A stretch of 64,000 bases of DNA from Chloroflexota bacterium (GTDB lineage: Bacteria; Chloroflexota; Dehalococcoidia; Lucifugimonadales; UBA3495), in assembly GCA_002721995.1 (NCBI GenBank), contig PBMF01000040.1, positions 8,382 through 72,381 of the forward strand, in the 5' to 3' direction. Numbering within the stretch: position 1 is the stretch's first letter; the number at the start of each line of letters is the position of its first letter. Below the pieces are notes generated by a model. The model was not told the origin of the DNA, ran no database searches, and saw nothing but the letters and a program-made list of their open reading frames with translations. The position numbers were made by a program, and so were the translations under genes. Shown piece after piece: positions 17,523 to 60,771 of the stretch.

Positions 17523-17535
17523 GAGGTTTCTCATA

Positions 17536-17551
17536 GAGCCACAAGTGGCTC
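17536..17551 (+). terminator. Short hairpin after the ABM gene (possible terminator; sits at the GC junction)
   Basis: gagcca-caag-tggctc is a perfect 6-bp stem with a 4-nt loop, followed by atggctttcc. It lies 14 nt after the stop at 17522. Confidence 0.3.
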
Positions 17552-17577
17552 ATGGCTTTCCGACAAGAGCTTGAGGC

Positions 17578-17789
17578 ATGGCCTTCGACACCGCGATCCT
17601 TCTGGCCGAACTGGTGGCCCTCTTCTTCGGTGTCACCACCCTGCTGCACTTGGCCTAGCGGCGCTTCGGACCCGAGCGCATTCCGGACTGGATGGGGGGC
17701 CGACCGGCCGTTGCCGCCCTGAAGGGCATCACCGTCAGCTCAACTTGCGCCGTTCTGAGCGTTCTCGGCCATTTCGATGGTCATCTCGT
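17578..17789 (+). pseudogene. Membrane-permease-like 5' fragment interrupted by an in-frame TAG
   Basis: ATG 17578 gives MAFDTAILLAELVALFFGVTTLLHLA. TAG follows at 17656-17658. The same frame continues RRFGPERIPDWMGGRPAVAALKGITVSSTCAVLSVLGHF. The plausible coding signal then leaves this frame near 17785. Confidence 0.3.
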
Positions 17790-17990
17790 ATCGACCTGTT
17801 GGAGTCGGATCCGTACCTGCACAACCTGTTGGAGCAGATCCGTCCGTCGATCCTGGATATCTCGATCCTCCAGGTCGAGCAGTCCGCTGGTGGCGGTTCC
17901 GAGGCGCACGTCCAGCAGCTGGCTGCCGGATGGATGGACGCCAACGCCGACCTGGTCGCCGGCTGGGTAGCCGACGCCGCCAAGGGCTGA
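17790..17990 (+). pseudogene. proX: 3' remnant (~67 codons) of a ProX/OpuAC-type glycine-betaine-binding protein gene
   Basis: The 17571 ORF frame reads Arg-rich nonsense until ~17790. It then reads IDLLESDPYLHNLLEQIRPSILDISILQVEQSAGGGSEAHVQQLAAGWMDANADLVAGWVADAAKG*. From memory, this resembles the C-terminus of E. coli ProX (...[26 protein letters not shown]). Confidence 0.5.
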
Positions 17991-18026
17991 CCACCAGCCA
18001 GGTCGACAACGACCACCACGTGAGAC

Positions 18027-18054
18027 GGGGGCGGGGCCGCAAGGCCCCGCCCCC
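18027..18054 (+). terminator. Strong GC hairpin with GCAA tetraloop
   Basis: gggggcggggcc-gcaa-ggccccgccccc is a perfect 12-bp stem, 37 nt after the proX-remnant stop. There is no clear U-tract. Confidence 0.5.
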
Positions 18055-18179
18055 TCTCCGTGCCATCAGACGCATTCCCTCTCAGGTGCTACCGTTTTGC
18101 ACGCCGGGAGGTAACCGGCCACCGATCAGCGGTGGGCACCGAACTGGCTGCTGCGGTCAGGACCCAAGAGGGGGCAGGC

Positions 18180-19399
18180 ATGACGGAACAGGGGGAGACG
18201 ATCGTCTCACTCGAGGGCGTCTACAAGATCTTCGGACCGGATCCGCGGGGGCGTGCGTACGACCTCGCCCGGGCCGGAGTGAGCAAGGACGAGGTCCAGC
18301 GACTCTCCGGCCACGTGGTCGGCATGACGGACATCTCGTTCGACGTGAAGAAAGGCGAGATCTTCGTGGTGATGGGCCTGTCGGGCTCGGGCAAGTCCAC
18401 GGCGATCCGCACGGTCAACAAACTCCACGACATCACGGCCGGCTCCGTGACCGTCGAAGGCGTCGACGTCCAGTCCCTCACCGGCTCGGCGCTCCAGACG
18501 TTCCGCCGGGAGAAGATGGGCATGGTCTTCCAGCACTTCGCCCTCTTCCCGCACCGGAACGTCATCGACAACACCGGCTACGGGCTCAAGGTGCAGGGCG
18601 TGCCCAAGCAGGAACGTGACGCCGCCGCCCTCAAGGCCCTGGCCATGGTCGGCCTCGAGGCCTACGCGCACAACGCCACAAGCCAGTTGTCGGGTGGCAT
18701 GCAGCAGCGTGTCGGCCTAGCGAGGGCCCTGTGCAGCGACCCGCCCATCCTGTTGATGGACGAGGCCTTCAGCGCCCTCGACCCGCTCATCCGCCGCCAG
18801 ATGCAGGACGAGCTGATGGCCATCCAGGAGCAGTTGCACAAGACCATCCTGTTCATCACGCACGACCTGAACGAGGCGCTGCGGATCGGCAACCGGGTCT
18901 GCATCCTGCGGGACGGCTATGTGGTGCAGATCGGCACGCCGGAGGAGATCCTGACGGAGCCCGCCGACGCCTACGTCGCCGAGTTCACCCAGGACGTCGA
19001 CCAGGGCCGGGTCATCGACGTCGTGAACGTCATGAAGGACCCGGTCATCATCCAGGCCTCCGACACGCTCGTCGGGGCCGTCGACCGGTTGGGCGACCGT
19101 CGTGGCGGCTTCACGGTCGACGCCGACGGGCGGCCCACCGGCCTCCTGTCGGTGGCCGAGGCCGCCGGCGCATTGGCCCACGGGACCACTTCCCTTGCCG
19201 ACGTCCTGCGGACGGACTTCGGCACGACGTCGGCGGAGGCCCGGCTGAACGAGAACTACGCCGCCGCCGGTCGGGGCTTACCGATCGCTGTCTGCGACGA
19301 CACGGGACGCCTCATCGGAGAGCTCGAGCCCCGTGAGATCATGGAGGAGATGGGCCGGGTCGAGCAGCTCATAGACGGCTTCGAGCGGGAGGTGTTCCT

Positions 19400-19403
<4 letters not shown>
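18180..19403 (+). CDS. proV: Glycine betaine/proline betaine ABC transporter ATP-binding protein with C-terminal CBS domains
   Basis: ORF track starts at 18060. ATG 18180 gives MTEQGETIVSLEGVYKIFG. Walker A GLSGSGKST, signature LSGGMQQRVGLARAL, and a ~130-aa C-terminal CBS-like tail. Confidence 0.9.
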
Positions 19404-21520
<2,117 letters not shown>

Positions 21521-21590
21521 CGGCATCCTCGCCGCGACGACTCGTAGACGTCGCCCGGGTCGGCTCGTCCGGCTCGGGCGTTCGTCGCCT

Positions 21591-22424
21591 TCAGTCCGGG
21601 TCGGGGTCGGGTCCGCCCGTCGTCGGGTCTGGGGCATCGGCGGCAGTGCGCTTCACCTGCTCGGTGAGGTTGCCGAGGCGTTCCCTCACCTCGGGGACCT
21701 GCTGGGCCAGCGCCTGGAGGTCCGGGACCGAACGGATGGCGGTTCGTGCGCCCATGGCCTCCATGGCCCGGTGCACCCAGCGCTTGTTGACCTGCAGGAG
21801 CCCGGCGGGCACGCCGGCGATCCGCTCGGCGATGTCGAGGACCCGGTCCTCGATTTCGTCGGTGGGAAAGCAGCGGTTGGCGTAGCCCATCCGGACCGCT
21901 TCGGCAGCGTCGACCGGGTCGCCCGTCAGGACCATCTCCATGGCGTTGCGGAGGCCGACCAGCCACGGATGGACGGCGAAGTCGGGAGTGCCGGCGAGGC
22001 GGAGCACCGGATGTGAGACGGTGGCGTCGTCGGCCAGGTAGACGAGGTCGCAGGCCGCCGCCAGTTCGCTGCCGCCGGCCATGGCGTAGCCGTGGACCTG
22101 GGCGATCACGGGCTTGGCGAGGTCCCAGATCCAGAGCCAGCCCTGTGTCACGTGGTGGGCCCAGGCAGCGGGCCCGGCCGGGGTGTGGTAGGGCCGGTCG
22201 GAACCGAGGTCGGACTTGAGGTCGTAGCCCGACGAGAAGCACGGGCCGGCGCCGCGCAGGATCGTGACGTGGACGTCCTCGTCACGGTCGGCGGCCTTGA
22301 GGGCTGCGAAGAGCTCGCCGCGAAGGGCGTTGCTCAGGGCGTTGCGCTGGTCGGGCCGGTTGAGGGTGAGGCGTCGGACGCCGGGGCGGGGATCGTCGGT
22401 GAGGACGAGCGGTTCGCCGGTCAC
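21591..22424 (-). CDS. Enoyl-CoA hydratase/isomerase (crotonase) family protein
   Basis: ORF track starts at 22490. GTG 22424 (VTGEPLVLTDDPRPGVRRLTLNRPDQRNAL) avoids overlap with the upstream ACAD gene. Confidence 0.8.
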   Translation of the reverse strand: MTGEPLVLTDDPRPGVRRLTLNRPDQRNALSNALRGELFAALKAADRDEDVHVTILRGAGPCFSSGYDLKSDLGSDRPYHTPAGPAAWAHHVTQGWLWIWDLAKPVIAQVHGYAMAGGSELAAACDLVYLADDATVSHPVLRLAGTPDFAVHPWLVGLRNAMEMVLTGDPVDAAEAVRMGYANRCFPTDEIEDRVLDIAERIAGVPAGLLQVNKRWVHRAMEAMGARTAIRSVPDLQALAQQVPEVRERLGNLTEQVKRTAADAPDPTTGGPDPDPD

Positions 22425-22449
22425 GTCGCGTTCCCCGGCTCGGCCACGC

Positions 22450-23610
22450 TCATCGGGCCCGGGGCAGGCCCAGGTGACGTTCGGCCACATTGTTGCGGTT
22501 GATCTCGGAGGTTCCCCCGTAGATCGTGGTGACCGGCGAGTGTCGGGCGTCGTAGTCGATCCACCCGTGGGCGGCAGCGCCCTCGGTGTCGAACCCGAGC
22601 AGGCCGGCAGCGCCGGCCATCTGCTGGAACCAGCCCACGGCCTGCTGGTAGCGGTCGGTGGCGTACAGCTTGGCCATCGAGCCCTCGAGACCCGGGAGGC
22701 CGCCGGTGGCGGCGATCCAGGCTGCCCGGAGGGTCAGCAGCTGGCTGACCTGGTTGGCGATGGTGGTCCGGGCGATGCGCTCGCGCAGCAGCGGGTCGTC
22801 GAGCATGCGGCCGCCGTCGGGGGACGGTGCTCTGGCCGCCCAGTCGTGGACGTGGCGGACCAGGGGGACGCCGGGATTGGTGCCGCCCATCACGCCGCGC
22901 TCGAAGGCCAGTGCCACGCCCATCACGGACCAGCCGCCGTCGACGTCGCCGAGCCGCCACTCGTCGCCGACGCGGACGTCGTCGTAGAAGGTGGCGTTCG
23001 TGCGCTCGGTGGCCATGGTCGGCACCGGCTGGACCTCGATGCCCGGGGTGTCCATCGGCACCAGGAACATCGTGAGGCCCTTGTGCTTGGGGACGTCGGG
23101 GTTCGTTCGGGTCAGGAGGATCACCCAGTCGGCCTCGTGGGCCATCGTGGTCCACATCTTCTGGCCGTTGACCACCCACTCGTCGCCGTCGCGCACCGCC
23201 CGTGTGGTGATGGCGGCTACGTCCGACCCGTGGTCGGGCTCGCTGTAGCCGAGGCAGCAGTTGTGCCGGCCGGTGAGCAGTTTCGGGAGCACCTCCTCGC
23301 GGTGGAAGTCGGTGCCGACGGCGTTGACGATGCCCGCCACGAGCATGGTCACGGCCAGCCCGTCGTAGGGGGCGCCGGCCTTCTCGAGCTCGTTGAAGAG
23401 GACGTAGAGCTCGATGGGGTCGCGGTCGCCGTAGCCGGGCACGGCGCCGGCCAGCAGGCCGGCATCGGCGAGGGCGCCGTTGAGGTCCTTGTCGTTGAAG
23501 GTGCCGGTCCGGTGCATCGCGTCGACGACGTCGGCGGTGAGGTGCGCCTCGAGGAATGCCCGGACCTCGTCGCGGAAGGCGGCGGCACGGGAGGAGAGGG
23601 CGAAGTCCAT
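22450..23610 (-). CDS. Acyl-CoA dehydrogenase (large/catalytic subunit of a probable heteromeric pair)
   Basis: Within ORF 22450..24186, ATG 23610 gives MDFALSSRAAAFRDEVRAFLEAH. Also CLGYSEPDHGSD and the C-terminal IYGGTSEINRN. The upstream part of the ORF is Arg/Pro-rich nonsense. Confidence 0.9.
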   Translation of the reverse strand: MDFALSSRAAAFRDEVRAFLEAHLTADVVDAMHRTGTFNDKDLNGALADAGLLAGAVPGYGDRDPIELYVLFNELEKAGAPYDGLAVTMLVAGIVNAVGTDFHREEVLPKLLTGRHNCCLGYSEPDHGSDVAAITTRAVRDGDEWVVNGQKMWTTMAHEADWVILLTRTNPDVPKHKGLTMFLVPMDTPGIEVQPVPTMATERTNATFYDDVRVGDEWRLGDVDGGWSVMGVALAFERGVMGGTNPGVPLVRHVHDWAARAPSPDGGRMLDDPLLRERIARTTIANQVSQLLTLRAAWIAATGGLPGLEGSMAKLYATDRYQQAVGWFQQMAGAAGLLGFDTEGAAAHGWIDYDARHSPVTTIYGGTSEINRNNVAERHLGLPRAR

Positions 23611-24677
23611 CAGGCGGCGTCCCCGACCGCGGATTCGAGCAGGAGGTCGGCCAGGCGCCGGCACTCGCGGGCCGGGTCGTCGAGCACGAGGGCCCAGGCT
23701 CGGGCTCGGCGGTAGAAGAGCTGGATGTCGTACTCCTCGCTGAAGCCGTAGCCGCCGTGGACGTGCAGGGAGCGGTCGGTGGCGGTCGCGGCGGCCTCGC
23801 CGGCGGCGACCAGCGCCATGCTGGCGAGGGCGGGGAAGTCGGTGACGTCGTTGGTGCCGAGGTCGATCGTGCCGCCGTTGCCGTCGGGGTCGAGGTCGCC
23901 CGACCAGGCGGCCTTTGCGGCCAGCAGCCGGGCACCGTCGAGCAGGCCGGGGAGGTCGGCGAGGAGCTGCTGCACGGCCTGGAAGGCCCCGATGGGCCGT
24001 CCGAACTGGTGGCGTTCCTTGACGTACTCGACCGCCAGGTCGAGCGCGGTGCGGGCGTTGCCGACGAGCGCCGCGGCCGTGAGGGTGCGCCACTCGTCGA
24101 GGGCGCGGCCGTGGGCGGCGTGGGCGGCGTTGCCCTCGGCAACGACGATGGCTCCGTCCAGTGGTCGGTGGGCGAGGGGGAGGCAACCGTGGTTGGCGAG
24201 CGCCGTCATGGACGCCTCTCCCGAGGCCACGACGAGCCGGTCGTCGTCGAGGGCCACGACGTGGGTGGCGACCGCCGCGGCGGGGCAGGCCTCGGCGACG
24301 CCGTCGACCGCGGGCCGCAGGGCGAGCGTGGCGGCCTCGGTGCCCTCGACGACCCCCGCCAGCAGGCCGTCCGGACAGGCGTCGAGGCCGGCCAGCAGGC
24401 GGGCGGCCACGGCGTGCTCGACCAGGGGCAGTGGAGCGATGGCGGCGCCGTACTCCTCGGCCACGACGGCCAGGTCGGCCAGCGTGGCCCCGCCACCGCC
24501 CCGGGACTCGGCCACGCCCATGCCGGGGGCGCCGGTCTCGAGGAGCCGGCCCCAGGCGTCCGGGTCGAAGCCGAGGGGCTCGGCGGCCCGGGCCCGCTCA
24601 GGCCCGCCCTGTCCGGCAAACACGTCGGTGAAGACCTCGCGCAGGGTCTCCTGGTCGTTCGTGAGTGCGAGGTCCAC
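23610..24677 (-). CDS. Acyl-CoA dehydrogenase family protein (smaller partner subunit)
   Basis: 355-aa ORF starting MDLALTNDQETLREVF. Its TGA overlaps the downstream ATG (ATGA at 23608-23612). Confidence 0.8.
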   Translation of the reverse strand: MDLALTNDQETLREVFTDVFAGQGGPERARAAEPLGFDPDAWGRLLETGAPGMGVAESRGGGGATLADLAVVAEEYGAAIAPLPLVEHAVAARLLAGLDACPDGLLAGVVEGTEAATLALRPAVDGVAEACPAAAVATHVVALDDDRLVVASGEASMTALANHGCLPLAHRPLDGAIVVAEGNAAHAAHGRALDEWRTLTAAALVGNARTALDLAVEYVKERHQFGRPIGAFQAVQQLLADLPGLLDGARLLAAKAAWSGDLDPDGNGGTIDLGTNDVTDFPALASMALVAAGEAAATATDRSLHVHGGYGFSEEYDIQLFYRRARAWALVLDDPARECRRLADLLLESAVGDAA

Positions 24678-24774
24678 GTTCCGACCCTACCGGTGGGTCG
24701 TGGTGGGCCTTCGGTCCGCCGGTTCCGGGAGGCCGACTTCCGGCCCGATGGCCGCCCGTGACTATGGTCCGGCG

Positions 24775-25572: not shown

Positions 25573-25583
25573 GCGGGGGATCC

Positions 25584-25612
25584 GGAGGGAAGAGGCCCGT
25601 CCACTTCCCTCC
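25584..25612 (+). terminator. Hairpin after the crotonase gene (candidate terminator)
   Basis: ggagggaag-aggcccgtcca-cttccctcc has a 9-bp stem and 11-nt loop, 12 nt after the stop at 25572. No U-tract. Confidence 0.35.
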
Positions 25613-25807
25613 TGGTGGCCGACCTCCGCGTCCCCTCCAACTCCTCGACGACGCACGGCCGGCGGGGTGGAGGGTCCCTGACGTCACCGTGGGGACGACC
25701 CCCTGGTGAGTGGACCGGCCAGTGTCGGGTCTCCGGGCAAGTGAGCGTCCGGTGAGCCGTCGGAGGCCCGGCGATGGCCGCCCCCGGTGGAGAAGGAGGT
25801 GGTGTGG

Positions 25808-26755: not shown

Positions 26756-26847
26756 GGTTGCTCCAGCGGATTCAGGTGGCGGCGGGGACCGCTGGAGGCT
26801 ACCGGCGGGTAGCCGCGAGGCCCGTGTCGGAGACGGTCACTCCCGGT

Positions 26848-30668: not shown

Positions 30669-30721
30669 GGGTGGGGCGTTCCTGAGGTCACGGGGTGGGT
30701 GGGGGAGCCGGGGTTCCGCGG

Positions 30722-49544: not shown

Positions 49545-49625
49545 TGATCCCCTCCAAAGTGGTGGTCAGTGGGTTGAGTGATCAGGTTCCGACGGAGCGG
49601 GTGCCCTTCACGGTGGTGTCGAGCC

Positions 49626-49666: not shown

Positions 49667-49724
49667 TTCACTCTGCGTCCACAAGGCCGGGTCCCCTGCC
49701 GGCGAGCCGTTCCGAACCGAGACG

Positions 49725-51961: not shown

Positions 51962-51980
51962 GTCGCCCGCGGCCCCCGAC

Positions 51981-52910: not shown

Positions 52911-54187
52911 TCGTCCAGCAGTCCGACCCCGAGACCGGCCGCGGCCGCCCGGTTCGCGTCGATGCGCTGCCGGAGCCCACGACCGCCGCCGAGGCGGGCC
53001 TCATGGTGGGATGTCCTCCGGCGCCGCACCTCCGGGTGAGCCGCCAGAACTGGATGGCCTACCCGCAGTCGCTCTGGTCGTTTCGGCACATGGAGGAGCT
53101 CGGCCCGGCGGCGAGGATTGACCGGGGCAGCGGACCCGTCGACGAGTTCGTCCGGGGCGAGGACACGCTCGGCCTCGCCGACCTGAACTTGGAGGGGGAT
53201 TCCGGAGGGAACTGGGACCTCGCCGAGTTCCTGCGCCGAACCTACACCGACGCCCTGCTTGTCGCCCACCGGGGCCGTCTGGTGCACGAGTGGTACGCCG
53301 ACGGCATGGGGCCGACCACCCGGCACGCCATGTTCTCGACGACTAAGACCTTCAGCGGGCTGGTCGCCCTGCTGGCGATCCACGACGGCGAACTCGCGCT
53401 CGACGACCTCCTGGTCGACCACGTCCCGGAGCTGGCCGGCACCGGCTGGGAGCCGGTCACCGTCGAGCAGGCCCTCGACATGACCGACGGCATCAGCTTC
53501 GAGGAGGACTACGGCAGCCGCGACTCGTCGATCATGCGCTACGGGTTCGCCATGGGCTTCACGCCCATGCCGAGCCGGTGGGAGGGGCCGGTCGGCATCC
53601 GCGAGGCGCTGCGTACGTTGGTCGAGCGGTCGACGCCGCCGGGCGAGTCGTTCCTCTACACGTCGGCCACGACGGACGCCCTGGCCTGGGCGGTGGCCAG
53701 GGTCACCGGCCGACGCTGGTCGGAGGAGGTGTCGGCGAGGATCTGGCAGCCGTTGGGGGCGGCGTGCGACGCCGGGATCTCGATCGACCCCACCGGCCTC
53801 GAGATCGCCTCGGGCGGCATGTTCGCCACGGCCCCCGACCTGCTGCGCTTCGGAATGATGCTGGCACGGGGCGGGACCAACGGCGCCGGCGAGCAGGTCC
53901 TCCCGGGAGCGGTGGTGAGCGACCTCGTCGAGGGCGGTGAGCCCGACCCGGACGGCTGCGGCGGCTACGCCACCCGGGCCGGCTGGAGCTTCCACCGCCA
54001 GTGCTGGAACCAGTACCGGTCCTGGGGGTCGCTCATCCCGATGGGCGTCCACGGCCAGCGGCTCTTCATCCATCCCGGGGCCGAGCTGGTCGTGATGAAG
54101 TTCGGCTGCCACCCGGTCACCGGCAACGTCTTCACCGACGAGGTCCACCAGCGCTTCTACGAGGAGCTGCTCTCCCGAGCGGGCTAG
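52892..54187 (+). CDS. Serine hydrolase of the beta-lactamase/transpeptidase-like family
   Basis: ATG 52892 (MRTPELIV) overlaps the cobW-like 3' end by 19 nt. SxxK as FSTTKTF. About 431 aa. Confidence 0.8.
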   Translation: MRTPELIVQQSDPETGRGRPVRVDALPEPTTAAEAGLMVGCPPAPHLRVSRQNWMAYPQSLWSFRHMEELGPAARIDRGSGPVDEFVRGEDTLGLADLNLEGDSGGNWDLAEFLRRTYTDALLVAHRGRLVHEWYADGMGPTTRHAMFSTTKTFSGLVALLAIHDGELALDDLLVDHVPELAGTGWEPVTVEQALDMTDGISFEEDYGSRDSSIMRYGFAMGFTPMPSRWEGPVGIREALRTLVERSTPPGESFLYTSATTDALAWAVARVTGRRWSEEVSARIWQPLGAACDAGISIDPTGLEIASGGMFATAPDLLRFGMMLARGGTNGAGEQVLPGAVVSDLVEGGEPDPDGCGGYATRAGWSFHRQCWNQYRSWGSLIPMGVHGQRLFIHPGAELVVMKFGCHPVTGNVFTDEVHQRFYEELLSRAG

Positions 54188-54245
54188 CCCCTGCCACCTG
54201 ACATGGGGACGGGCCTCATGTCACGTGCCTGGAGCCTGCCCGCGC

Positions 54246-55082
54246 CTATCCACCCCGGCCGGTGCCCTTCGATGCGCGCACGCGCTCGAGGTAGGCCTCA
54301 CGAGCGGCCCGGCCCTCGTCGTCGCGGAGCCCGGCGGCCAGTCCCTCGGCGTCGCCCCAGGAGCGGGACAGGCCGACCATCTGGCTGGTCACGGCGTTGG
54401 TGTGGGCCTTGGTCGCCAGCACGGCGAAGCGGGGTCGTGCCGCCACGGCCTCGGCCAGCTCGTCGACGGCAGCGTCGAGTTCGGCGACCGGCACCACCCG
54501 GTTGAGGAAGCCCGCCGCCTGTGCCTCGGCGGCGCCGAACGGCCGGCACGTCATCACGAGTTCCTTGGTGAGCGCCGGGCCGATCTCGCGCACCAGGCGG
54601 GGGATGCCGCCCCACGCCAGGGGGATGCCGAGGTCCACCTCCGGGATCGAGAACCGGACGTCGTCGGCGGCGACCCGCAGGTCGCAGGCGGCCGCCAGCA
54701 CGAGCCCGCCGCCGACCACGTGTCCGTGGAGGCGGGCGATGGCGACCGGTGCCATCCGCTCGAGGGCGTCGGCCATGAGCCGCCCCGTGTCGCCGGGGAC
54801 GCGGCCGCCTGCTGGCGATGGGGTGTCGCCCGTGGCAGGCAGGAACGCGCTCAGGTCGGCGCCGGCGGAGAAGGCCCGGCCGGCGCCGGAGACCACGACC
54901 ACCCGCACGTCGGGTTGGTGGTCGAACCAGCCGCAGGCGGCGATCACCTCGGCCATGACCTCGTTGGACAGGGCGTTGAGCGCCTCCGGCCGGTTCAGCG
55001 TGAGCGTGCCGCGGGGTCCGTCGGCGCTGACCAGCAGGTGCGCGAAGTCGGGGGGAGGTGAGGCGTGCGCGGTGGTTCCCAT
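54246..55082 (-). CDS. Enoyl-CoA hydratase/isomerase family protein
   Basis: ATG 55082 gives MGTTAHASPPPDFAHLLVSADGPRGTLTLNRPEALNAL...GAGRAFSAGADL. Confidence 0.85.
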   Translation of the reverse strand: MGTTAHASPPPDFAHLLVSADGPRGTLTLNRPEALNALSNEVMAEVIAACGWFDHQPDVRVVVVSGAGRAFSAGADLSAFLPATGDTPSPAGGRVPGDTGRLMADALERMAPVAIARLHGHVVGGGLVLAAACDLRVAADDVRFSIPEVDLGIPLAWGGIPRLVREIGPALTKELVMTCRPFGAAEAQAAGFLNRVVPVAELDAAVDELAEAVAARPRFAVLATKAHTNAVTSQMVGLSRSWGDAEGLAAGLRDDEGRAAREAYLERVRASKGTGRGG

Positions 55083-55117
55083 GGGCGCGAGTCTCGCCCG
55101 AGAACGCGGCTCGCCCG

Positions 55118-57787
55118 CTACCCGGCGGCGGGTGGGGGTTCCTCGAGTTCGACTCGGGCGGACAGGCCCGCACCCTCGTCGCCGGCAACGAGTTCGATGT
55201 GTTCCGCCCGGGCGGCGGCGGCGACGTCGCCGAGTGCGGCGCGCAGGTGCCCGATCCGGTCGGCGGGGCACGTCAGCGTGCAGGCCACGACGGGCGTGGC
55301 CAGTGAGCGCTTCTCGGCGGTCTTGTGGCGACGGATCTCGGCCAGCGCCTCGGCGGCCACGCCGGCCACCCCGGGGTCGCCGGCATCGCCGTCGTGGACG
55401 GCCGCGGCGCGGAGCTCGTCTGCGTCGGGCCAGGTGGCCCGGTGCACCGAGCCGGCCTGCCACCAGGACCAGACCTCCTCGGTGACGAACGGCAGGAACG
55501 GGGCGAACAGTCGCAGCAGCGTCGAGACCGCCAGGCGCAGTGCGTGGCGGGCCGACTCGGCGTCGGCCGGATCGCCCTCATAGGCCCGGGCCTTGACCAG
55601 TTCGACGTGGTCGTCGGTGAACGTCCAGAACCAGGATTCGGTTCGCTCGAGGGCCCGGGCGTAGTCGAAGGCCTCGAAGGCGTCGGTGGCCTCGTCGACC
55701 AGCCGGGCGAGCCGGAATAGCATCGCCCGGTCGAGCGGATGCGTGATGTGGGACAAGTCGATGTCGAGGGGAAGCGGGTCGCCGTCGGGGGAGTTGCCGA
55801 CGCCCAGGGCGAAGCGGCTGGCGTTGAGCAACTTGATGGCGAGGCGTCGGCCGATCTTCATCTGGCCGTCGTCGAAGGCGGTGTCGGTGCCGGGCCGGCC
55901 GTTGGCCGCCCAGTAGCGGACGGCGTCGGAGCCGTACTGCTCGAGCAGGCCCATCGGAGTGACGACGTTGCCCTTGGACTTGGACATCTTCTTGCGGTCG
56001 GGGTCGAGCACCCATCCGCTGAGTGCGGCGTGCCGCCACGGCGCCGAGTCCTCCTCGAAGTGCGAGCGCACGACCGTGGAGAACAGCCACGTCCGGATGA
56101 TGTCGTGGGCCTGGGGCCGCACGTCCATGGGGTAGGTGCGGGCGAACAGGTCCCCGTCCTCGCCCCAGCCGCAGGCGATCTGTGGCGTGAGGGACGAGGT
56201 CGCCCACGTGTCCATGACGTCGGGGTCGCCGGCGAACCCGCCGGGTTGACCGCGCTGCGCCTCGTCGAAGCCGGGAGCGGCGTGGGAGGTCGGGTCGACG
56301 GGGAGGTCGGCCTCGTCGGGCGTGATCGGGTCGTCCCAGACCGGCTCACCGTCCTCGTCCAGCCGGTACCAGAGCGGCAGCGGCACACCGAAGAATCGCT
56401 GCCGGCTTATCAGCCAGTCGCCGTTGAGGCCGTCGATCCAGTTCGTGAACCTGGCCTGCATGTAGGCGGGGTGCCACGCCATCTGGTCGCCGCGGGCGAC
56501 CAGCGCCGCCCCGAGGTCGGCGTCGCGGCCGCCGTTGCGGATGTACCACTGGCGGCTGGTCACGATCTCGAGCGGCTTGTCCCCCTTCTCGAAGAACTTG
56601 ACCGGGTGGGTGATTGCCTCGGGCTCGCCGACCAGGTCGCCGGACTCGCGGAGGATCTCGACCATCTCCTGCTGTGCCGAGAACACGGTCTTGCCGGCCA
56701 GCCGGGCGTAGGCGGCGCGCGCCCCGTCGGATTCGACGCCCGTCGGTGGGTCGTGCTGGAAGCGGCCCTCCCGGTTGACGACCGCCCGGACCGGCAGGTC
56801 GAGTTCGCGCCACCAGGTCACGTCGGTGGTGTCGCCGAACGTGCAGATCATGGCGATGCCGGTGCCCTTCTCGGGGTCCGCCAGGTGGTGGGCCCGGATC
56901 GGCACCTCGACGCCGAACACGGGCGTCGTCACGGTGGTGCCGAACAGCGGCTGGTAGCGCTCGTCGTCCGGGTGGGCCACGAGGGCGACGCAAGAGACCA
57001 CGAGTTCGGGACGGGTAGTGGCGATGAGGAGGTGCGGTTCGCCGAGGTGCGAGGTGGCGTCGACGGTGAGCCCGAACTTCAGTTGGTGGTACGCACCGGG
57101 GCGTTCGCGGTCCTCGAGTTCGGCCTGGGCGACGGCGGTGCGGAAGGTGACGTCCCAGAGTGACGGGGCCTCGACCTGGTAGGCCTCGCCCCGCTCGAGG
57201 TTCCGCAGGAACGCCCGCTGGGCGACCCGCTGGCAGCGGTCGTCGATCGTGGCGTAGGTCTGGGTCCAGTCGATGGACAGGCCCAGGTGCCTCCACAGGG
57301 CCTCGAAGGCCTTCTCGTCCTCGAGCGTCAACTCGTGGCAGAGGGCGATGAAGTTGCGGCGGCTGATGTCGAGGTCGCCACGCTTCTTGATGGCCTTGGG
57401 GTCGCCCGCGTCTGCGGGCGCCTCGAAGTCGGGGTCGTAGGGCAGGCTCGGGTCGCAGCGCACCCCGTAGTAGTTCTGGACCCGGCGTTCGGTGGGTAGG
57501 CCGTTGTCGTCCCACCCCATCGGGTAGAAGACCTCCTTGCCGGCCATGCGCTGGTAGCGGGCGACGGTGTCGGTGTGGGTGTACGAGAACACGTGCCCGA
57601 CGTGGAGCGAGCCGCTCACCGTCGGGGGCGGCGTGTCGATCGAGAACACCTCGTCGCGGGGCTTCGTCCGGTCGAACCGGAACGTGTCGGCCTCCTCCCA
57701 GGCGGCGTCCCAGCGCGTCTCGAGCCCCTCGAGCGAGGGCTTGTCGGGAATGCGCGGGGCGGGGAGGGGTCCTGGTTCGGAGAGCAT
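55118..57787 (-). CDS. valS: Valine--tRNA ligase
   Basis: 889-aa ORF. HIGH-region SGSLHVGHVFSY and KMSKS (KKMSKSKGN). Size and N-terminal layout match the actinobacterial-type ValRS. Confidence 0.88.
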   Translation of the reverse strand: MLSEPGPLPAPRIPDKPSLEGLETRWDAAWEEADTFRFDRTKPRDEVFSIDTPPPTVSGSLHVGHVFSYTHTDTVARYQRMAGKEVFYPMGWDDNGLPTERRVQNYYGVRCDPSLPYDPDFEAPADAGDPKAIKKRGDLDISRRNFIALCHELTLEDEKAFEALWRHLGLSIDWTQTYATIDDRCQRVAQRAFLRNLERGEAYQVEAPSLWDVTFRTAVAQAELEDRERPGAYHQLKFGLTVDATSHLGEPHLLIATTRPELVVSCVALVAHPDDERYQPLFGTTVTTPVFGVEVPIRAHHLADPEKGTGIAMICTFGDTTDVTWWRELDLPVRAVVNREGRFQHDPPTGVESDGARAAYARLAGKTVFSAQQEMVEILRESGDLVGEPEAITHPVKFFEKGDKPLEIVTSRQWYIRNGGRDADLGAALVARGDQMAWHPAYMQARFTNWIDGLNGDWLISRQRFFGVPLPLWYRLDEDGEPVWDDPITPDEADLPVDPTSHAAPGFDEAQRGQPGGFAGDPDVMDTWATSSLTPQIACGWGEDGDLFARTYPMDVRPQAHDIIRTWLFSTVVRSHFEEDSAPWRHAALSGWVLDPDRKKMSKSKGNVVTPMGLLEQYGSDAVRYWAANGRPGTDTAFDDGQMKIGRRLAIKLLNASRFALGVGNSPDGDPLPLDIDLSHITHPLDRAMLFRLARLVDEATDAFEAFDYARALERTESWFWTFTDDHVELVKARAYEGDPADAESARHALRLAVSTLLRLFAPFLPFVTEEVWSWWQAGSVHRATWPDADELRAAAVHDGDAGDPGVAGVAAEALAEIRRHKTAEKRSLATPVVACTLTCPADRIGHLRAALGDVAAAARAEHIELVAGDEGAGLSARVELEEPPPAAG

Positions 57788-57843
57788 CGCCAGCCGAGGT
57801 TACCCGTGCGAGGTCGAGGCTGGCCCTGCCGTAGGTTTGGGGA

Positions 57844-59205
57844 ATGGACGCTGCCACGGGCCAGACCCTCGAGTTGCTCCAGGTGCTGATCCGGAACGCC
57901 TGCGTCAACGACGGCACACCCGAGTCCGGCCAGGAGGTCCGCAACGCGGACACCCTCGAGGGGTTCTTGTCCGAGGCTCGGCGGCCCGGCCTCCGGGGCA
58001 CGGGCTACGACCTCGAGCGGTTCGAGCCCTCACCGGGCCGGGTGTCGTTGGTGGCCAAGATCGAGGGTTCCGACCCGGAGGCGCCGTCGCTGTGCCTGAT
58101 GGGCCACACCGACGTGGTGCCGGTCAACCCGGAAGGTTGGACCCGCGACCCGTTCGGTGGCGAGCTCGTGGACGGCGAGGTGTGGGGCCGTGGCGCCGTC
58201 GACATGTTGAACCTGACGGCGGCGCAGGCGGTGGCGTTCCGGCGCCTCGCCGAGTCCGGCTTCACCCCGCGGGGCGACCTGGTCTTCTTCGCCGTCGCCG
58301 ACGAGGAGCACGGCAGCCTCCACGGCGCCCACTGGATGGCCGAAAACGAGATCGACGCCATCCGGGCCGACTACGTGCTGACCGAGAACGGCGGGCTCCA
58401 CACCGGTCCGCCCGGTGCGCCGGCGGTCGCCATGAACGTGGGCGAGAAGGGCATCGCCTGGCGACGCCTGACGGTTCGGGGCACGCCGGGGCACGGGTCG
58501 ATGCCGTTCCGAAAGGACAACGCCCTCGTCAAGGCGGCGGCGGTGGCCCAGCGGATCGCCGACTACCGGCCGCCGCCCCGGTTCCACGAGCTCTGGTACT
58601 CGCAGGTCGCCGGCATGGGCCTGCCCGACGAGATGAAGGAGCAGCTCCTGGACCCAGGCCGTATCGACGAGTTCCTCGAGTCGTTTCCGAGCCTCGGGGC
58701 GGCCGGCCACCTGCACGCCTGCACGCACACCACGTTCTCGGTGAACAACGTGGAGATGGACGGCAAGACCAACGTGATCCCCGACCGGGTGGTGCTCGAC
58801 GTCGACATCCGGACGCTGCCGGGCGAGGACGACGCCTCGGTGCAGGCGCACCTGGATGCGGCCCTGGGCGACCTGACGGGCGAGGTCGAGGTTTCGCCGG
58901 TCATCACGGGCCCGGCGACCATGAGCCGGATCGACACCCCGTTGTGGGACTCGCTGCAGCGGGCGACGAACCGCCACTTCCCCGACGCCCGGCTGACCGC
59001 CCAGTTCATCGTGGGGGCCACCGACGCCAAGGTGTTTCGGGAACTCGGGGCCGTCGCCTACGGCGCGGGCCTCCTCAGTCCCGACATCAGTTCGGGCGAC
59101 TTCGCCAGCCGCTTCCACGGCAACGACGAGCGCATCGACCTCGAGTCGCTGCGGCTCACGGGTTCGCTCTACGAGGACGTGGCCCGGGACCTGTTGGGAC
59201 GCTGA
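57844..59205 (+). CDS. M20-family metallopeptidase (dipeptidase/deacylase-like)
   Basis: 453-aa ORF with GHTDVVP and ADEE motifs. Divergent from valS across a 56-nt spacer. Confidence 0.85.
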   Translation: MDAATGQTLELLQVLIRNACVNDGTPESGQEVRNADTLEGFLSEARRPGLRGTGYDLERFEPSPGRVSLVAKIEGSDPEAPSLCLMGHTDVVPVNPEGWTRDPFGGELVDGEVWGRGAVDMLNLTAAQAVAFRRLAESGFTPRGDLVFFAVADEEHGSLHGAHWMAENEIDAIRADYVLTENGGLHTGPPGAPAVAMNVGEKGIAWRRLTVRGTPGHGSMPFRKDNALVKAAAVAQRIADYRPPPRFHELWYSQVAGMGLPDEMKEQLLDPGRIDEFLESFPSLGAAGHLHACTHTTFSVNNVEMDGKTNVIPDRVVLDVDIRTLPGEDDASVQAHLDAALGDLTGEVEVSPVITGPATMSRIDTPLWDSLQRATNRHFPDARLTAQFIVGATDAKVFRELGAVAYGAGLLSPDISSGDFASRFHGNDERIDLESLRLTGSLYEDVARDLLGR

Positions 59206-59291
59206 GGGGGACCGGCCGACTCCGCCATTGTTGTTACCCTCCGGTAACCTCCGGTCCGTAACCGCAGCACACGACGCGCGAGGCTCCCCCC

Positions 59292-60506
59292 ATGGACGAC
59301 TTCTCCCTCCAGCTGAACGACGAACAGATCCAGCTCCGCGACTGGGTCCACGGCTTCGCCGAGGACGTGGTCCGGCCGGCCGCCGAGGAGTGGGACGAGC
59401 GGGAGGAGTTCCCGTACCCGATCGTCGAGCAGGCCGCCCAGATCGGCCTCTACGGCTGGGAGTTCCTGGCCAACGCCACCATGAACGACAAGAGCGGCCT
59501 CACGCTGCCCCTGGCCATCGAGGAGCTCTTCTGGGGCGACGCCGGGATCGGGATGGCGATCATGGGCTCGGGCCTGGCCGCCGCCGGGATCATGGCCTCC
59601 GGCACCGACGAGCAGGTGATGGAGTGGGTGCCCCAGTGCTACGGCTCGGCGGACGACCTCCAGCTGGGTGCCTTCTGCGGCAGCGAGCCCGACGCCGGCT
59701 CCGACGTGGCCGGCTACCGCACCCGAGCCGTGTACGACGAGGCGACCGACGAGTGGGTGCTCGACGGCACCAAGGCCTGGATCACCAACGGTGGCATCGC
59801 CGACGTCCACGTCGTCGTCGGCGTGGTCGACCCCGAGTTGCGGGCCAAGGGCCACGCCTCGTTCGTCGTCCCGCCCGGCACCCCCGGCCTCTCCCAGGGC
59901 CAGAAGTACAAGAAGCACGGCATCCGGGCCAGTCACACCGCCGAGGTGGTGCTCGACGGCGTGCGGGTCCCGGGCCGCTGCCTGCTCGGCGGCAAGGAGA
60001 AGCTCGACGAGCGCCTCGCCCGCGTGAGGGAGGGCAAGCCCGGCAACGCCCAGGCCGCCATGCAGACGTTCGAGGCGACCCGCCCCGCTGTGGGTGCGCA
60101 GGCGATCGGCATCGCCCGGGCGGCCTACGAGTACTCGCTGGAGTACGCCAAGGAGCGGCACGCCTTCGGCCGGCCGATCATCATGAACCAGGGGATCGCC
60201 TTCATGCTGGCCGACATGGCGACCGAGATCGAGGCCACGCGTGCCCTGATCTGGCGGGCGGCCTGGCTCGGCAAGCAGCGGGCGTTCGTGAACGCCGAGG
60301 GGTCGATGGCGAAGCTCAAGGCGGGTCGGGTGGCGACGTGGGTGACCGAGCGGGCCATCCAGATCCTCGGTGGCTACGGCTACACCCGGGAGTACCCCGT
60401 CGAGCGGTGGCACCGTGACGCCAAGATCCACGACATCTTCGAGGGCACCGAACAGATCCAGCAGCTGGTCGTGAGCCGGGCGATCTCGGGCCTGCGGATC
60501 GAGTAG
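59292..60506 (+). CDS. Acyl-CoA dehydrogenase
   Basis: 404-aa ORF with GSEPDAGSD, the C-terminal IFEGTEQIQ, and canonical length. Its TAG stop (60504-60506) is the last high-GC feature. Confidence 0.9.
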   Translation: MDDFSLQLNDEQIQLRDWVHGFAEDVVRPAAEEWDEREEFPYPIVEQAAQIGLYGWEFLANATMNDKSGLTLPLAIEELFWGDAGIGMAIMGSGLAAAGIMASGTDEQVMEWVPQCYGSADDLQLGAFCGSEPDAGSDVAGYRTRAVYDEATDEWVLDGTKAWITNGGIADVHVVVGVVDPELRAKGHASFVVPPGTPGLSQGQKYKKHGIRASHTAEVVLDGVRVPGRCLLGGKEKLDERLARVREGKPGNAQAAMQTFEATRPAVGAQAIGIARAAYEYSLEYAKERHAFGRPIIMNQGIAFMLADMATEIEATRALIWRAAWLGKQRAFVNAEGSMAKLKAGRVATWVTERAIQILGGYGYTREYPVERWHRDAKIHDIFEGTEQIQQLVVSRAISGLRIE

Positions 60507-60771
60507 GGAGCGTAGCGATTTTGAATGGACAGCACAGGCCCTTTTTGCGTCAAGAGTGGACTAGTGATGAATCCCTAAGGGGGCGAGGGGCAACAAATGT
60601 CCGCGCGATGTGAACTCCCTACCCAGTTCATACCTTCGTCCAGAATTGAGGGAGCGAAGCGAGCTCACCATGGCGTTCTTTACCGTGATTGCTAATGAGA
60701 TGTATGCGATGCGGTGATACTGGCATGTTGTTCGAAGTCGCTCTGCGGCGAACAGGAACTGGGAGCACGGG

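What the first reader, a model, noticed from the sequence alone, without database searches (positions are those of the whole stretch)
17523..60560. 43-kb high-GC block embedded in ~50% GC DNA with knife-sharp boundaries and no mobility genes
Hand-counted lines give about 48% G+C at the start of the window and similar values up to ~17.57 kb. Values are about 63-72% from ~17.58 to 60.51 kb, then about 45-50% again to 64 kb. In the central block, third codon positions are almost all G/C and spurious Arg/Pro-rich ORFs fill every frame. The flanks use many A/T-ending codons, and the two flanks resemble each other. Each transition is complete within tens of nucleotides: ~50 nt after the ABM stop on the left, and immediately after an ACAD stop codon on the right.

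The block carries only metabolic, transport and housekeeping genes, including valS. It has no integrase, transposase, tRNA, att-like direct repeats or conjugation genes. I see two readings:
- An assembly, scaffolding or binning chimera that joins a high-GC actinobacterium-like chromosome fragment into a ~50% GC genome.
- A very recent, un-ameliorated acquisition of a large chromosomal segment across a wide phylogenetic distance.

Either reading matters for everything else inferred from this window.
Basis: partly seen in the sequence, partly recalled or inferred. Interest (0 to 1): 0.8.

Follow-up and report, generated by a model that had tools for sequence, protein, structure and literature searches.

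The report
Freshly transferred 43-kb high-GC chromosome piece
A 42.7-kb stretch of the chromosome of a high-GC marine actinobacterium (class Acidimicrobiia) sits, real and unaltered, inside the ~53% GC genome of another uncultured ocean bacterium; it is a very recent gene transfer without any mobile-element genes, not an assembly error.

Summary
The GC step is real. The flanks are 0.49-0.55 GC (GC3 0.50) and the block is 0.66-0.77 GC (GC3 0.93).

The chimera reading is rejected on four grounds:
- Both junctions recur, base for base, in at least 8 assemblies of different sequencing runs made with different assemblers.
- Coverage inside and outside the block is about equal (~18.5x against ~16.9x).
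- There are no Ns.
- There is no shared repeat at either junction.

The block (17787-60507) is colinear with, and 93-99.6% identical to, a contiguous chromosome segment of a marine high-GC Acidimicrobiia species. That segment appears in other metagenomes in an all-high-GC, natively syntenic context. Homology starts inside the 3' end of a substrate-binding-protein gene and ends 1 nt after an ACAD stop codon. A 264-nt stretch of other DNA lies at the left joint.

The block shows no amelioration. It has no integrase, transposase, tRNA or att repeats, and its 28 ORFs are intact, valS included.

Low-GC DNA continues for at least 31 kb to the left and at least 22 kb to the right, so the low-GC genome is the recipient. 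Its taxonomy is unresolved: homology leans to Actinomycetota, while MAG labels say Chloroflexi, Acidimicrobiaceae or Myxococcales. "Wide phylogenetic distance" is therefore not shown.

The most likely mechanism is end-joining insertion of a linear chromosomal fragment. This is a clean new instance of a known phenomenon.

The parts
1..17522 (.). Left flank of the recipient genome (~52% GC). It carries catabolic genes: TPP enzyme, CMD, four Amidohydro_2, SDRs, aldehyde dehydrogenase, CoA-transferase III, gamma-glutamyltranspeptidase, luciferase-like, HbpS-like, YjgF, P450 and ABM.
   Evidence: GC and GC3; Pfam. Low GC continues a further 14 kb to the left (L194).
17220..17522 (+). Last recipient gene on the left: a 100-aa ABM-like protein with a weak Pfam match.
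   Evidence: PF03992, E=0.0014, below the curated cut-off. A homologue sits next to the Amidohydro_2 orthologue in Acidimicrobiia loci.
17523..17577 (.). 55-nt spacer with flank-like composition (GC 0.53).
17578..17786 (+). 209-nt stretch of unknown origin at the left joint (GC 0.64). It opens with an ATG and a hydrophobic 26-codon reading frame closed by an in-frame TAG. It looks like the 5' stub of a membrane-protein gene. It matches neither the flank nor the donor-type contigs.
   Evidence: Sequence. No match in any fetched locus apart from copies of the window itself. No Pfam hit. The membrane-protein reading is my inference.
17787..60507 (.). The transferred block, 42,721 nt. It is colinear with a contiguous chromosome segment of a marine high-GC Acidimicrobiia species ('context B').
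   Evidence: blastn against L185-L190 starts at 17787 and against L173-L178 ends at 60507. In contig Ga0117920_1000065 the distance from the ABC_tran start to the ACAD stop is 42,320 nt, against 42,326 in the window. Tetranucleotide r with B flanks is 0.98-0.99.
17787..17990 (+). 3' remnant (last 68 codons) of the donor's 970-1307-aa SBP_bac_3/OpuAC substrate-binding-protein gene. The rest of the gene is missing.
   Evidence: L185 9607-9810 is the end of gene 6898-9810.
18180..21520 (+). Betaine/proline/choline-type ABC ATPase (407 aa) and permease (706 aa), now without their binding-protein gene.
   Evidence: (names given by sources).
21591..26755 (.). ECH, ACAD, ACAD, ECH and SDR genes.
   Evidence: Gene tables; intact ORFs.
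26848..33066 (-). Methylated-amine module: M24/creatinase-like, DAO-FAO_M-GCV_T oxidase (817 aa), MttB-family methyltransferase (509 aa) and an IclR regulator.
33109..42403 (.). Enolase-superfamily enzyme, luciferase-like oxidoreductase, S9 peptidase, SDR, molybdate-type ABC transporter (ATPase/TOBE, permease, SBP_bac_11) and MerR. Gene limits within 33.1-35.5 and 38.7-41.3 kb are approximate.
   Evidence: Same order in the Acidimicrobiaceae loci L088 and L090.
42834..49544 (-). Opp/Dpp-type ABC transporter: two ATPases, two permeases and a 982-aa binding protein.
49725..55082 (.). TetR, Amidohydro_3, CobW, beta-lactamase-fold protein and ECH.
55118..57787 (-). valS (889 aa) of Acidimicrobiia type.
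   Evidence: Nearest other homologues are 84-85% identical; the named ones are Acidimicrobiaceae, Actinomycetota or Acidimicrobiales MAGs. Context B carries an 889-aa copy with 6 aa differences.
57844..60506 (+). M20 peptidase and the last block gene, an ACAD of 404 aa. The ACAD protein is identical in the window and in context B.
60508..64000 (.). Right flank of the recipient genome (~54% GC): UbiX-like flavoprotein (60772-61350), MFS transporter (61425-62675, minus strand) and the start of HpaB.
   Evidence: Low GC continues to about window +82.3 kb (L191).

Best explanation
The block is a real, very recent horizontal acquisition.

What happened: a linear 42.7-kb piece of the ordinary chromosome of a marine high-GC Acidimicrobiia species was inserted into the chromosome of a different uncultured marine bacterium with ~53-55% GC. 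The piece is not a mobile element. The recipient lineage is found in Tara Oceans runs; one gene name reads TARA_125_SRF.

What is shown:
- The donor-type chromosome exists elsewhere with the same genes in the same order. It continues in high-GC, natively syntenic DNA on both sides.
- The two breakpoints ignore functional units. The left one cuts a transporter operon inside its binding-protein gene. The right one falls 1 nt after a stop codon.
- The left joint carries 209 nt of unrelated DNA.
- The block has the donor's composition unchanged, and all 28 ORFs are intact.

What is inferred:
- Integration was by illegitimate (end-joining or microhomology type) recombination at a double-strand break, with capture of filler DNA. 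It was not site-specific or homologous recombination.
- Delivery could have been by transformation or by a generalized-transducing particle, since 42.7 kb is a typical headful size.
- The methylated-amine and peptide-uptake genes may explain why the block is retained.
- A donor-type genome lives in the same water sample as the recipient.
For: The join is real:
- The left junction appears in scaffold_215 (146 kb), JGI Ga0211585_10000535, scaffold_911, CEUZ01074831 and a Logan contig.
- The right junction appears in scaffold_215, scaffold_1684, NODE_538, k127_11680, CEVA01241381, k127_468505 and k119_92250.
- All are 99.98-100% identical to the window.
- In assembly ERZ8580415, NODE_588 (window -8.4 to 54.7 kb) has 17.8x and NODE_538 (54.7 to 121 kb) has 17.0x. 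Solving for the two parts gives about 18.5x for the block and about 16.9x for the flank.

The donor is identified:
- The exact ACAD protein also lies in a second context: ACAD, 395-aa gene, 110-aa gene, HD, glyoxalase, CMD, DAO. That context has GC 0.72-0.74 and occurs in LUMW01000051, the SUTE22-1 scaffolds and Ga0117920_1000065.
- It is syntenic with other Acidimicrobiaceae MAGs.
- The left end of the same contig runs PPDK, beta-lactamase, OpuAC binding protein, ABC_tran and onward.
- Identity is 97.2% over 11.6 kb on the left and 99.1% over 7.2 kb on the right. The spacing is 42,320 nt against 42,326 nt.

The direction of transfer:
- Low GC continues from -14 kb to 17.5 kb and from 60.5 to 82.3 kb.
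- The flanks share one tetranucleotide signature.

The transfer is recent:
- GC is 0.704 against 0.705 on the left and 0.713 against 0.715 on the right.
- Window-versus-donor differences are 157 AT-in-window against 130 GC-in-window (p=0.12).
- Divergence between the window block and B on the right (0.9-1.1%) equals the diversity between B strains (L173 against L174, 0.6-1.3%).

No mobile-element features were found.

The donor co-occurs with the recipient:
- Logan contigs of run ERR594323 end at 17816 and start at 60478.
- Each point is exactly k-1=30 nt inside the block from 17787 and 60507 (k=31 from PMC12424806).
- The assembly graph therefore branches at both block ends.
Against: - No read mapping or long read was available; the coverage argument rests on two contig averages.
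- No 'empty site' was found. Across 5.8 billion proteins, the nearest relative of the junction-adjacent flank gene is only 76% identical. So insertion versus replacement, and microhomology at the target, cannot be judged.
- Only 53 kb of low-GC flank was seen, out of about 103 kb of flank in the longest scaffold.
- The recipient's taxonomy, its own valS, and whether it has Ku/LigD are all unknown.
- The left 4 kb of the block is 93-97% identical to the sampled donor population, so the true donor strain was not sampled directly.
- The end-joining and transduction steps are inference only.
Confidence: 0.8

Rival explanations
1. Reversed polarity. The organism is a strain of the high-GC Acidimicrobiia species, and the two low-GC stretches are large foreign islands inserted 42.7 kb apart.
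For: - The block is core-like chromosome with valS and native synteny.
- The flank genes have no close relatives anywhere: 76% or less and 69% or less.
- Only 53 kb of low-GC DNA was actually read.
Against: - It needs two separate insertions of at least 31 kb and at least 22 kb with the same tetranucleotide signature.
- One of them would have to delete most of the binding-protein gene and displace everything upstream.
- No return to high GC is seen over -14 to 17.5 kb or 60.5 to 82.3 kb, and contigs run on to -25 kb and +121 kb.
- One insertion is more parsimonious than two.
Confidence: 0.07
2. Assembly chimera. The block belongs only to the high-GC genome and was wrongly joined to a low-GC genome.
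For: - A near-identical high-GC genome exists and seems to co-occur in at least one run (contig ends).
- Several short-read assemblies break within about 30-200 nt inside the block ends.
- MAG labels for these contigs are inconsistent.
Against: - Identical junctions come from different runs and from assemblers with k from 31 to 127.
- The block and the flanks share no repeat that could mislead a de Bruijn graph.
- The joined block differs by 1-7% from every high-GC-context copy retrieved, and no copy of the window's own block allele was found in a high-GC context.
- Coverage is equal.
- There are no Ns.
Confidence: 0.04
3. Homologous replacement. The block replaced an orthologous segment of a related recipient, by distributive conjugal transfer or large-fragment recombination, rather than being inserted.
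For: - Flank genes are Acidimicrobiia-like at 55-76% aa identity with local synteny, so recipient and donor may belong to the same class.
- valS is a core gene whose native copy would be redundant.
Against: - Homology to the donor stops abruptly at both ends, with no graded or shared sequence.
- The neighbours in the donor (OpuAC binding protein, PPDK; 395-aa gene, HD) have no counterparts in the flanks.
- The left joint holds filler DNA and a truncated gene.
- An 18-20 point GC difference makes homologous pairing unlikely (inference).
Confidence: 0.07

Closest known systems
Recently acquired, un-ameliorated genomic islands (the amelioration framework of Lawrence and Ochman; from my own knowledge)
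   Same: - Sharp compositional discontinuity, strongest at third codon positions.
- The foreign segment keeps the donor's signature.
- Its cargo is metabolic and transport genes.
   Different: - Classical islands sit at tRNA genes, carry integrases, direct repeats or IS elements, and their donor is unknown.
- Here all of those were tested and are absent.
- The donor-type chromosome is identified at 93-99.6% identity, and the cargo is plain core chromosome including valS.
Illegitimate / end-joining (NHEJ-type) integration of foreign linear DNA at double-strand breaks, as described in actinobacteria such as Streptomyces and Mycobacterium (from my own knowledge). The distribution of NHEJ among bacteria is reviewed in PMC7719229.
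   Same: - Breakpoints are unrelated to gene boundaries.
- There is one truncated gene, and unrelated filler DNA at one joint.
- There is no recombinase and there are no repeats.
   Different: - The presence of Ku/LigD in the recipient is unknown.
- No pre-insertion site is available, so microhomology and target deletion cannot be scored.
- This is a natural event of 42.7 kb, not a laboratory construct.
Large chromosomal replacements and distributive conjugal transfer (for example Mycobacterium smegmatis, Streptococcus agalactiae, Klebsiella ST258; from my own knowledge)
   Same: Tens of kilobases of ordinary chromosome move between cells without a mobile element being left behind.
   Different: - Those events act within a species by homologous recombination and leave no GC step.
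- Here the flanks are not homologous to the donor, and the GC difference is about 18 points.
Chimeric or contaminated metagenomic contigs and bins
   Same: - Same symptom: a contig with two compositions and two taxonomic signals.
- Public MAGs label pieces of this locus as Chloroflexi, Acidimicrobiaceae and Myxococcales.
   Different: The junctions are reproducible across runs and assemblers, and coverage is even, so the mixed signal is biological.

Membership tests
Classical integrative island (tRNA/att-site island, ICE, prophage) | Integrase, recombinase or transposase gene within or beside the element | tested here: not met
   Pfam on all block ORFs, plus the gene tables for -14 to 82 kb, show none.
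Classical integrative island (tRNA/att-site island, ICE, prophage) | Insertion at a tRNA/tmRNA gene with flanking direct repeats | tested here: not met
   ARAGORN finds 0 genes and Rfam 0 families. The longest match between the two junction regions is 12 nt, and it lies inside the block.
Classical integrative island (tRNA/att-site island, ICE, prophage) | Conjugation or phage structural genes | tested here: not met
   Only metabolic, transport, regulatory and housekeeping domains were found.
Horizontally transferred chromosomal fragment | The same segment exists in another lineage in its native, syntenic context | tested here: met
   Context B contigs are colinear and 93-99.6% identical. They continue in high-GC DNA that is syntenic with other Acidimicrobiaceae MAGs.
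Horizontally transferred chromosomal fragment | Composition matches the donor and not the resident genome | tested here: met
   GC, GC3 and tetranucleotide comparisons.
Horizontally transferred chromosomal fragment | Absent from close relatives of the recipient (empty site) | tested here: inconclusive
   No relative closer than 76% or 74% was found. Contigs of >=90% variants of right-flank genes exist but could not be fetched.
End-joining / illegitimate integration | Breakpoints not at recombination sites; truncated gene and filler DNA at a joint; no extended homology | tested here: met
   The left breakpoint keeps only the last 68 codons of the binding-protein gene. A 209-nt unrelated stretch lies at the joint. 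Homology ends abruptly at 17787 and 60507.
End-joining / illegitimate integration | The recipient encodes Ku and LigD, or shows microhomology at the target | not testable with these tools
   The recipient genome and the pre-insertion allele are not available.
Assembly chimera | The junction is confined to one assembly or supported by a shared repeat | tested here: not met
   At least 8 assemblies of several runs carry the junctions; there is no shared repeat.
Assembly chimera | Coverage step at the junctions | tested here: not met
   SPAdes contig coverages of 17.8x and 17.0x imply about 18.5x against 16.9x. This is indirect; no read mapping was done.
Homologous large-fragment replacement / distributive conjugal transfer | Donor and recipient are homologous across the crossover points | tested here: not met
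   Donor neighbours on both sides are unrelated to the window's flanks.

The most novel reading that the evidence does not exclude
The recipient is not an actinobacterium. The NCBI MAG that holds the window's contig and another contig from the far-left flank is labelled Chloroflexi, and the flank gene content is SAR202-like. The window would then record an inter-phylum capture of a phage-headful-sized (42.7 kb) piece of core chromosome, including an essential aminoacyl-tRNA synthetase gene. It would have been caught before any amelioration, with donor and recipient populations co-occurring in the same seawater sample. That would make it a natural system for measuring how a foreign valS and 27 other genes with 93% GC3 fare in a 50% GC3 host, and how fast amelioration proceeds in the wild.
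Probability: 0.25. Interest if true: 0.65.

Novelty: new member of a known kind. Interest (0 to 1): 0.45.

Why it matters
- **A clean natural case of a GC barrier being crossed.** Transfers between genomes that differ by about 18 GC points are thought to be rare and short-lived. Here both partners are identified, the breakpoints are mapped to the base, and there has been no amelioration. The case gives a time-zero point for amelioration and codon-adaptation studies. It is also an example of mobile-element-free insertion of about 43 kb of core chromosome carrying a second (or replacement) valS.
- **A practical warning for genome-resolved metagenomics.** The contig is biologically mosaic. Composition-based binning and contamination or chimerism filters will misjudge it. 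Public MAGs already label pieces of this locus as Chloroflexi, Acidimicrobiaceae and Myxococcales. Any taxonomic or metabolic inference from this window must treat 17787-60507 as Acidimicrobiia-derived and the rest as the recipient.

Tried and rejected
- **SAR202 guess.** From the gene content I first guessed that the flanks were SAR202 (Chloroflexota). The GTDB scan and two protein searches instead gave Acidimicrobiia or Actinomycetota as nearest relatives. MAG labels are contradictory. I left the question unresolved.
- **Empty-site search.** The genome-contig scan found nothing closer than 74%. The right-flank cluster is not next to left-flank homologues in any fetched relative.
- **tblastx of the junction against all loci.** It gave only high-GC low-complexity noise.
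- **Origin of the 209-nt filler.** No match in any fetched locus and no Pfam hit. My recollection that it resembles a permease N-terminus is untested.
- **Amelioration test.** The AT excess in the window's copy is 157 against 130, which is not significant.
- **One look-up failed.** The 725-aa S9 peptidase ORF is not on record, probably because my start codon differs from the called gene.
- **A coordinate error of mine.** In one search the ECH gene was off by one base. The correct coordinates are 54246-55082. Its amino-acid difference count should be ignored.
- **Literature searches.** The one search aimed at this locus or lineage pair (SAR202 / Acidimicrobiia) found no description of it; the other two were general.

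Full report
**1.

In 1-kb windows, G+C is 0.49-0.55 from 1 to 17 kb, 0.656-0.766 from 18 to 60 kb, and 0.53-0.55 from 61 to 64 kb. Profiles in 100-nt windows and a likelihood change-point put the steps at about 17574 and about 60497.

The contrast is mostly at third codon positions. Eighteen flank ORFs have GC3 0.41-0.59 (mean 0.50). Twenty-eight block ORFs have GC3 0.88-0.97 (mean 0.93). GC1 and GC2 differ far less.

Tetranucleotide frequencies correlate at r = 0.86-0.89 among flank pieces, but only 0.33-0.64 between flank and block.

There is no tRNA or tmRNA and no Rfam family. The window contains no N. The only sequence shared by the two junction regions is a single 12-nt match, which is a chance level. 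Pfam scans and the gene tables of the public contigs show only metabolic, transport, regulatory and housekeeping domains.

**2. It is not an assembly artefact.**

Exact-protein look-ups of the genes next to each junction returned many public contigs. By blastn these are 99.98-100% identical to the window straight across the junctions.

- The left junction is in TARA_SAMEA2622837 scaffold_215 (146 kb), JGI Ga0211585_10000535 (62 kb), TARA_SAMEA2622823 scaffold_911, CEUZ01074831 and a Logan contig of ERR594323.
- The right junction is in scaffold_215, TARA_SAMEA2622822 scaffold_1684, ERZ8580415 NODE_538, ERR594339 k127_11680, CEVA01241381, ERR594323 k127_468505 and ERZ27286493 k119_92250.

These come from several sequencing runs and from assemblers with k between 31 and 127.

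Coverage is even. In one SPAdes assembly, NODE_588 covers window -8.4 to 54.7 kb (59% block) at 17.8x. NODE_538 covers 54.7 to 121 kb (9% block) at 17.0x. Solving the two averages gives about 18.5x for the block and about 16.9x for the flank. This is my arithmetic on contig averages, not a read mapping.

No repeat is shared between the block ends and the flanks that could mislead a de Bruijn graph.

**3. Where the block comes from.**

*valS.* Apart from its own 99% cluster, the block's valS is 84-85% identical to its nearest homologues. The named ones come from MAGs labelled Acidimicrobiaceae, Actinomycetota or Acidimicrobiales. An Acidimicrobiaceae MAG contig (PACE01000050, GC 0.69) and a second contig show the same order ACAD, M20, valS, ECH, and further block genes at 61-90% amino-acid identity.

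*The second context.* The decisive result is that the block's last protein, the 404-aa ACAD, occurs with an identical sequence in two contexts.
- One is the window's own context.
- The other ('context B') is found in LUMW01000051, several SUTE22-1 scaffolds, JGI Ga0117920_1000065 (112 kb) and Ga0115656_1002365. It continues after the ACAD with a 395-aa gene, a 110-aa gene, HD, glyoxalase, CMD and DAO. This is the order seen in the other Acidimicrobiaceae MAGs, at GC 0.72-0.74.

*The right boundary.* Context B is 99.1% identical to the window from 53292 up to 60507, which is 1 nt past the TAG stop at 60504-60506. After that point there is no similarity at all.

*The left boundary.* A cluster listing gave the context-B variant of the first block gene, and its look-up gave the left side. 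In context B the ABC ATPase is preceded by a 970-1307-aa SBP_bac_3/OpuAC binding-protein gene, a beta-lactamase-fold gene, PPDK, a nitroreductase and a PD-(D/E)XK gene, all at GC of about 0.70. Similarity to the window begins at 17787, inside the last 68 codons of the binding-protein gene. It runs at 97.2% (93-99.6% in 500-nt windows) for the 11.6 kb fetched.

*Colinearity.* In the single contig Ga0117920_1000065, the distance from the ATPase start to the ACAD stop is 42,320 nt, against 42,326 nt in the window. The whole block is therefore colinear with one donor-type chromosome segment. The block's tetranucleotide signature matches the DNA outside the block in context B (r = 0.98-0.99).

**4. 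Junction anatomy.**

*Left side.* The ABM-like gene stops at 17522. Next come 55 nt of flank-like spacer (GC 0.53). Then come 209 nt (17578-17786, GC 0.64) that match neither the flanks nor any donor-type or other locus fetched. This stretch opens with an ATG and a hydrophobic 26-codon frame closed by an in-frame TAG, and has no Pfam hit. I read it as captured filler, perhaps the 5' stub of a membrane-protein gene; that reading is inference. The block then starts at 17787 with the 3' remnant of the OpuAC binding-protein gene.

The betaine/proline/choline-type ABC ATPase and permease that follow have thus lost their binding-protein gene. The 706-aa permease shows only a BPD_transp_1 domain.

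*Right side.* The block ends 1 nt after a stop codon, and 264 nt of flank-composition spacer precede the UbiX-like gene.

The breakpoints therefore do not respect functional units or recombination sites.

**5. Which side is the resident genome?**

Walking outwards on the public contigs, GC stays at 0.47-0.56 for a further 14 kb to the left and at 0.52-0.60 for a further 18 kb to the right. At least 53 kb of low-GC DNA with one shared signature therefore surrounds the 42.7-kb block. The contigs themselves extend to about -25 kb and +121 kb. One insertion into a low-GC chromosome is more parsimonious than two large low-GC insertions into the high-GC chromosome. I rate the reversed polarity at about 7%.

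**6. How recent is it?**

- The block's GC equals that of context B (0.704 against 0.705 on the left; 0.713 against 0.715 on the right).
- Among 377 differences, the window has A/T where B has G/C 157 times, and the reverse 130 times (p = 0.12). No drift towards the host's composition is detectable.
- On the right-hand 7 kb, divergence between the window and B (0.9-1.1%) is no larger than that between two context-B strains (0.6-1.3%).
- All 28 ORFs are intact and have the same lengths as in context B, apart from start-codon choices.
- Logan contigs are built with k = 31 and end at graph branches (PMC12424806). In run ERR594323 the flank contigs end at 17816 and begin at 60478. Each point is exactly 30 nt inside the block measured from 17787 and 60507.
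- I infer that the same sample holds a second genome that shares the block's ends and diverges exactly where context B does. That would be a donor-type strain, closer to the block than the B contigs I could fetch, because those differ at 17799.

**7. Who is the recipient?**

This is unresolved.

- *Left flank.* The Amidohydro_2 gene next to the left junction has no relative above 76% among 5.8 billion proteins. Its best GTDB hits (68-74%) are all high-GC Acidimicrobiia MAGs. Neighbouring flank genes are present there at 50-76%, partly in the same order.
- *Right flank.* A xanthine-dehydrogenase-family gene 20 kb into the right flank has unnamed relatives at 66-69%, and then Actinomycetota at 50% or less.
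- *Labels.* NCBI labels of identical or >=90% identical flank proteins are 'Chloroflexi bacterium' (locus tags CL759_*; this MAG holds the window's own contig), 'Acidimicrobiaceae bacterium' (CL459_*) and 'Myxococcales bacterium' (CMH54_*). Bin labels are therefore unreliable here, as expected for a mosaic contig.

My estimate is roughly 55% for a divergent low-GC Actinomycetota/Acidimicrobiia lineage, 30% for Chloroflexota (SAR202-like), and the rest for other groups. 'Wide phylogenetic distance' is therefore not shown. The compositional distance of about 18 GC points is.

**8. Mechanism.**

*Shown:* a colinear excerpt of ordinary donor chromosome; abrupt loss of homology at both ends; a truncated gene and unrelated filler at one joint; no recombinase, repeats, tRNA, IS or transfer genes.

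*Inferred:*
- A linear double-stranded fragment was joined into a chromosomal break by illegitimate, end-joining-type recombination. Homologous replacement is unlikely, because the donor's neighbours have no counterparts in the flanks.
- How the fragment arrived is open. 42.7 kb is a typical headful for a generalized-transducing particle, and transformation is equally possible. I give any single delivery route no more than about 30%.
- Retention may be helped by the cargo. It includes a methylated-amine module (M24/creatinase-like, DAO-FAO_M-GCV_T oxidase, MttB-family methyltransferase, IclR), an Opp-type peptide transporter, fatty-acyl-CoA enzymes and valS. The event may also simply be too recent for decay.

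**9. Comparison with what is known.**

It behaves like a recently acquired, un-ameliorated island. It fails every defining test for tRNA/integrase islands, ICEs and prophages. It also fails the test for homologous large-fragment replacement. It fits insertion of a chromosomal fragment by illegitimate recombination. That is a known kind of event, but one rarely documented in nature with the donor context, both breakpoints and a time-zero composition all in hand.

The one literature search aimed at this locus or lineage pair (SAR202 / Acidimicrobiia) found no description of it; the other two searches were general.

**10. Verdict.**

The chimera reading is rejected (about 4%). The recent-transfer reading is supported and refined. 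Phylogenetic distance and the fate of the host's own valS remain open.

This is a new, unusually clean member of a known kind. Interest is moderate (0.45). It would rise to about 0.65 if the recipient proves to belong to another phylum.

Noticed in passing
window 56855-56938 (inside valS), compared with L089: Contig k119_92250 (ERZ27286493) is identical to the window over 18.9 kb except for 15 substitutions packed into 84 nt of valS (5 aa changes). 14 of the 15 differ from both the window and context B. This is either a short conversion tract from a third, high-GC valS allele or a local assembly mix of strains.
   Followed up: partly
L185-L190 (context B), gene upstream of the ABC ATPase; window 17787-17982: The donor's OpuAC/SBP_bac_3 binding-protein gene varies from 970 to 1307 aa between strains. 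It contains an internal repeat: a second copy is 87.8% identical to window 17787-17982.
   Followed up: partly
window 20320-20430; L186 12035-12309, L187: Some context-B strains carry an indel or duplication of about 100-150 nt in the middle of the 704-706-aa permease gene, which splits the gene call. Identity between the window and B also dips to 93% here.
   Followed up: no
window 17800-18035 and 60320-60535: Contig ends of several assemblies cluster just inside the block: 17816, 17982, 18007, 18032, 18032 on the left and 60320, 60478, 60532 on the right. The two Logan ends (17816 and 60478) fit k-1 = 30 nt from the homology boundaries exactly. The CEUZ contigs stop about 190 nt inside the block at both ends.
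   Followed up: partly
Flank proteins outside the window (L006, L009, L091, L191, L194): Identical or >=90% identical proteins of the recipient lineage are deposited in NCBI MAGs labelled Chloroflexi (CL759_*), Acidimicrobiaceae (CL459_*) and Myxococcales (CMH54_*). The same lineage has therefore been binned three ways.
   Followed up: partly
window 9055-17522 compared with L014 (VFJJ01000017, GC 0.69): The low-GC left-flank cluster (HbpS-like, YjgF, Amidohydro_2, P450, Amidohydro_2, ABM) is matched at 55-76% aa identity, largely in the same order, in a high-GC Actinomycetota MAG. Either the recipient is a GC-shifted relative, or this cluster is an older, fully ameliorated import.
   Followed up: partly
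Right flank beyond the window, about window +67 to +70 kb (L006-L010, L191-L193): The SBP_bac_5 gene is called at 525, 609, 940 or 1021 aa, and the adjacent HbpS-like gene at 88 or 136 aa, in different assemblies. This suggests a variable or repetitive stretch just upstream of the Opp-like operon.
   Followed up: no
window 42834-54187 compared with L088 and L090: The Opp-type transporter, TetR, Amidohydro_3, CobW and beta-lactamase segment of the block (~11 kb, slightly lower GC of 0.66-0.70) is absent from the 84%-valS Acidimicrobiaceae relatives. Those have BioY or other genes there instead. The segment is therefore itself an indel within the donor family.
   Followed up: no
L172 and L192 (ERR594323 k127_468505), window 60772-61350: In this contig no UbiX-like gene is called, although the DNA differs from the window by only 2 nt over 10.7 kb. 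This may be a disabling variant in UbiX in one sample.
   Followed up: no
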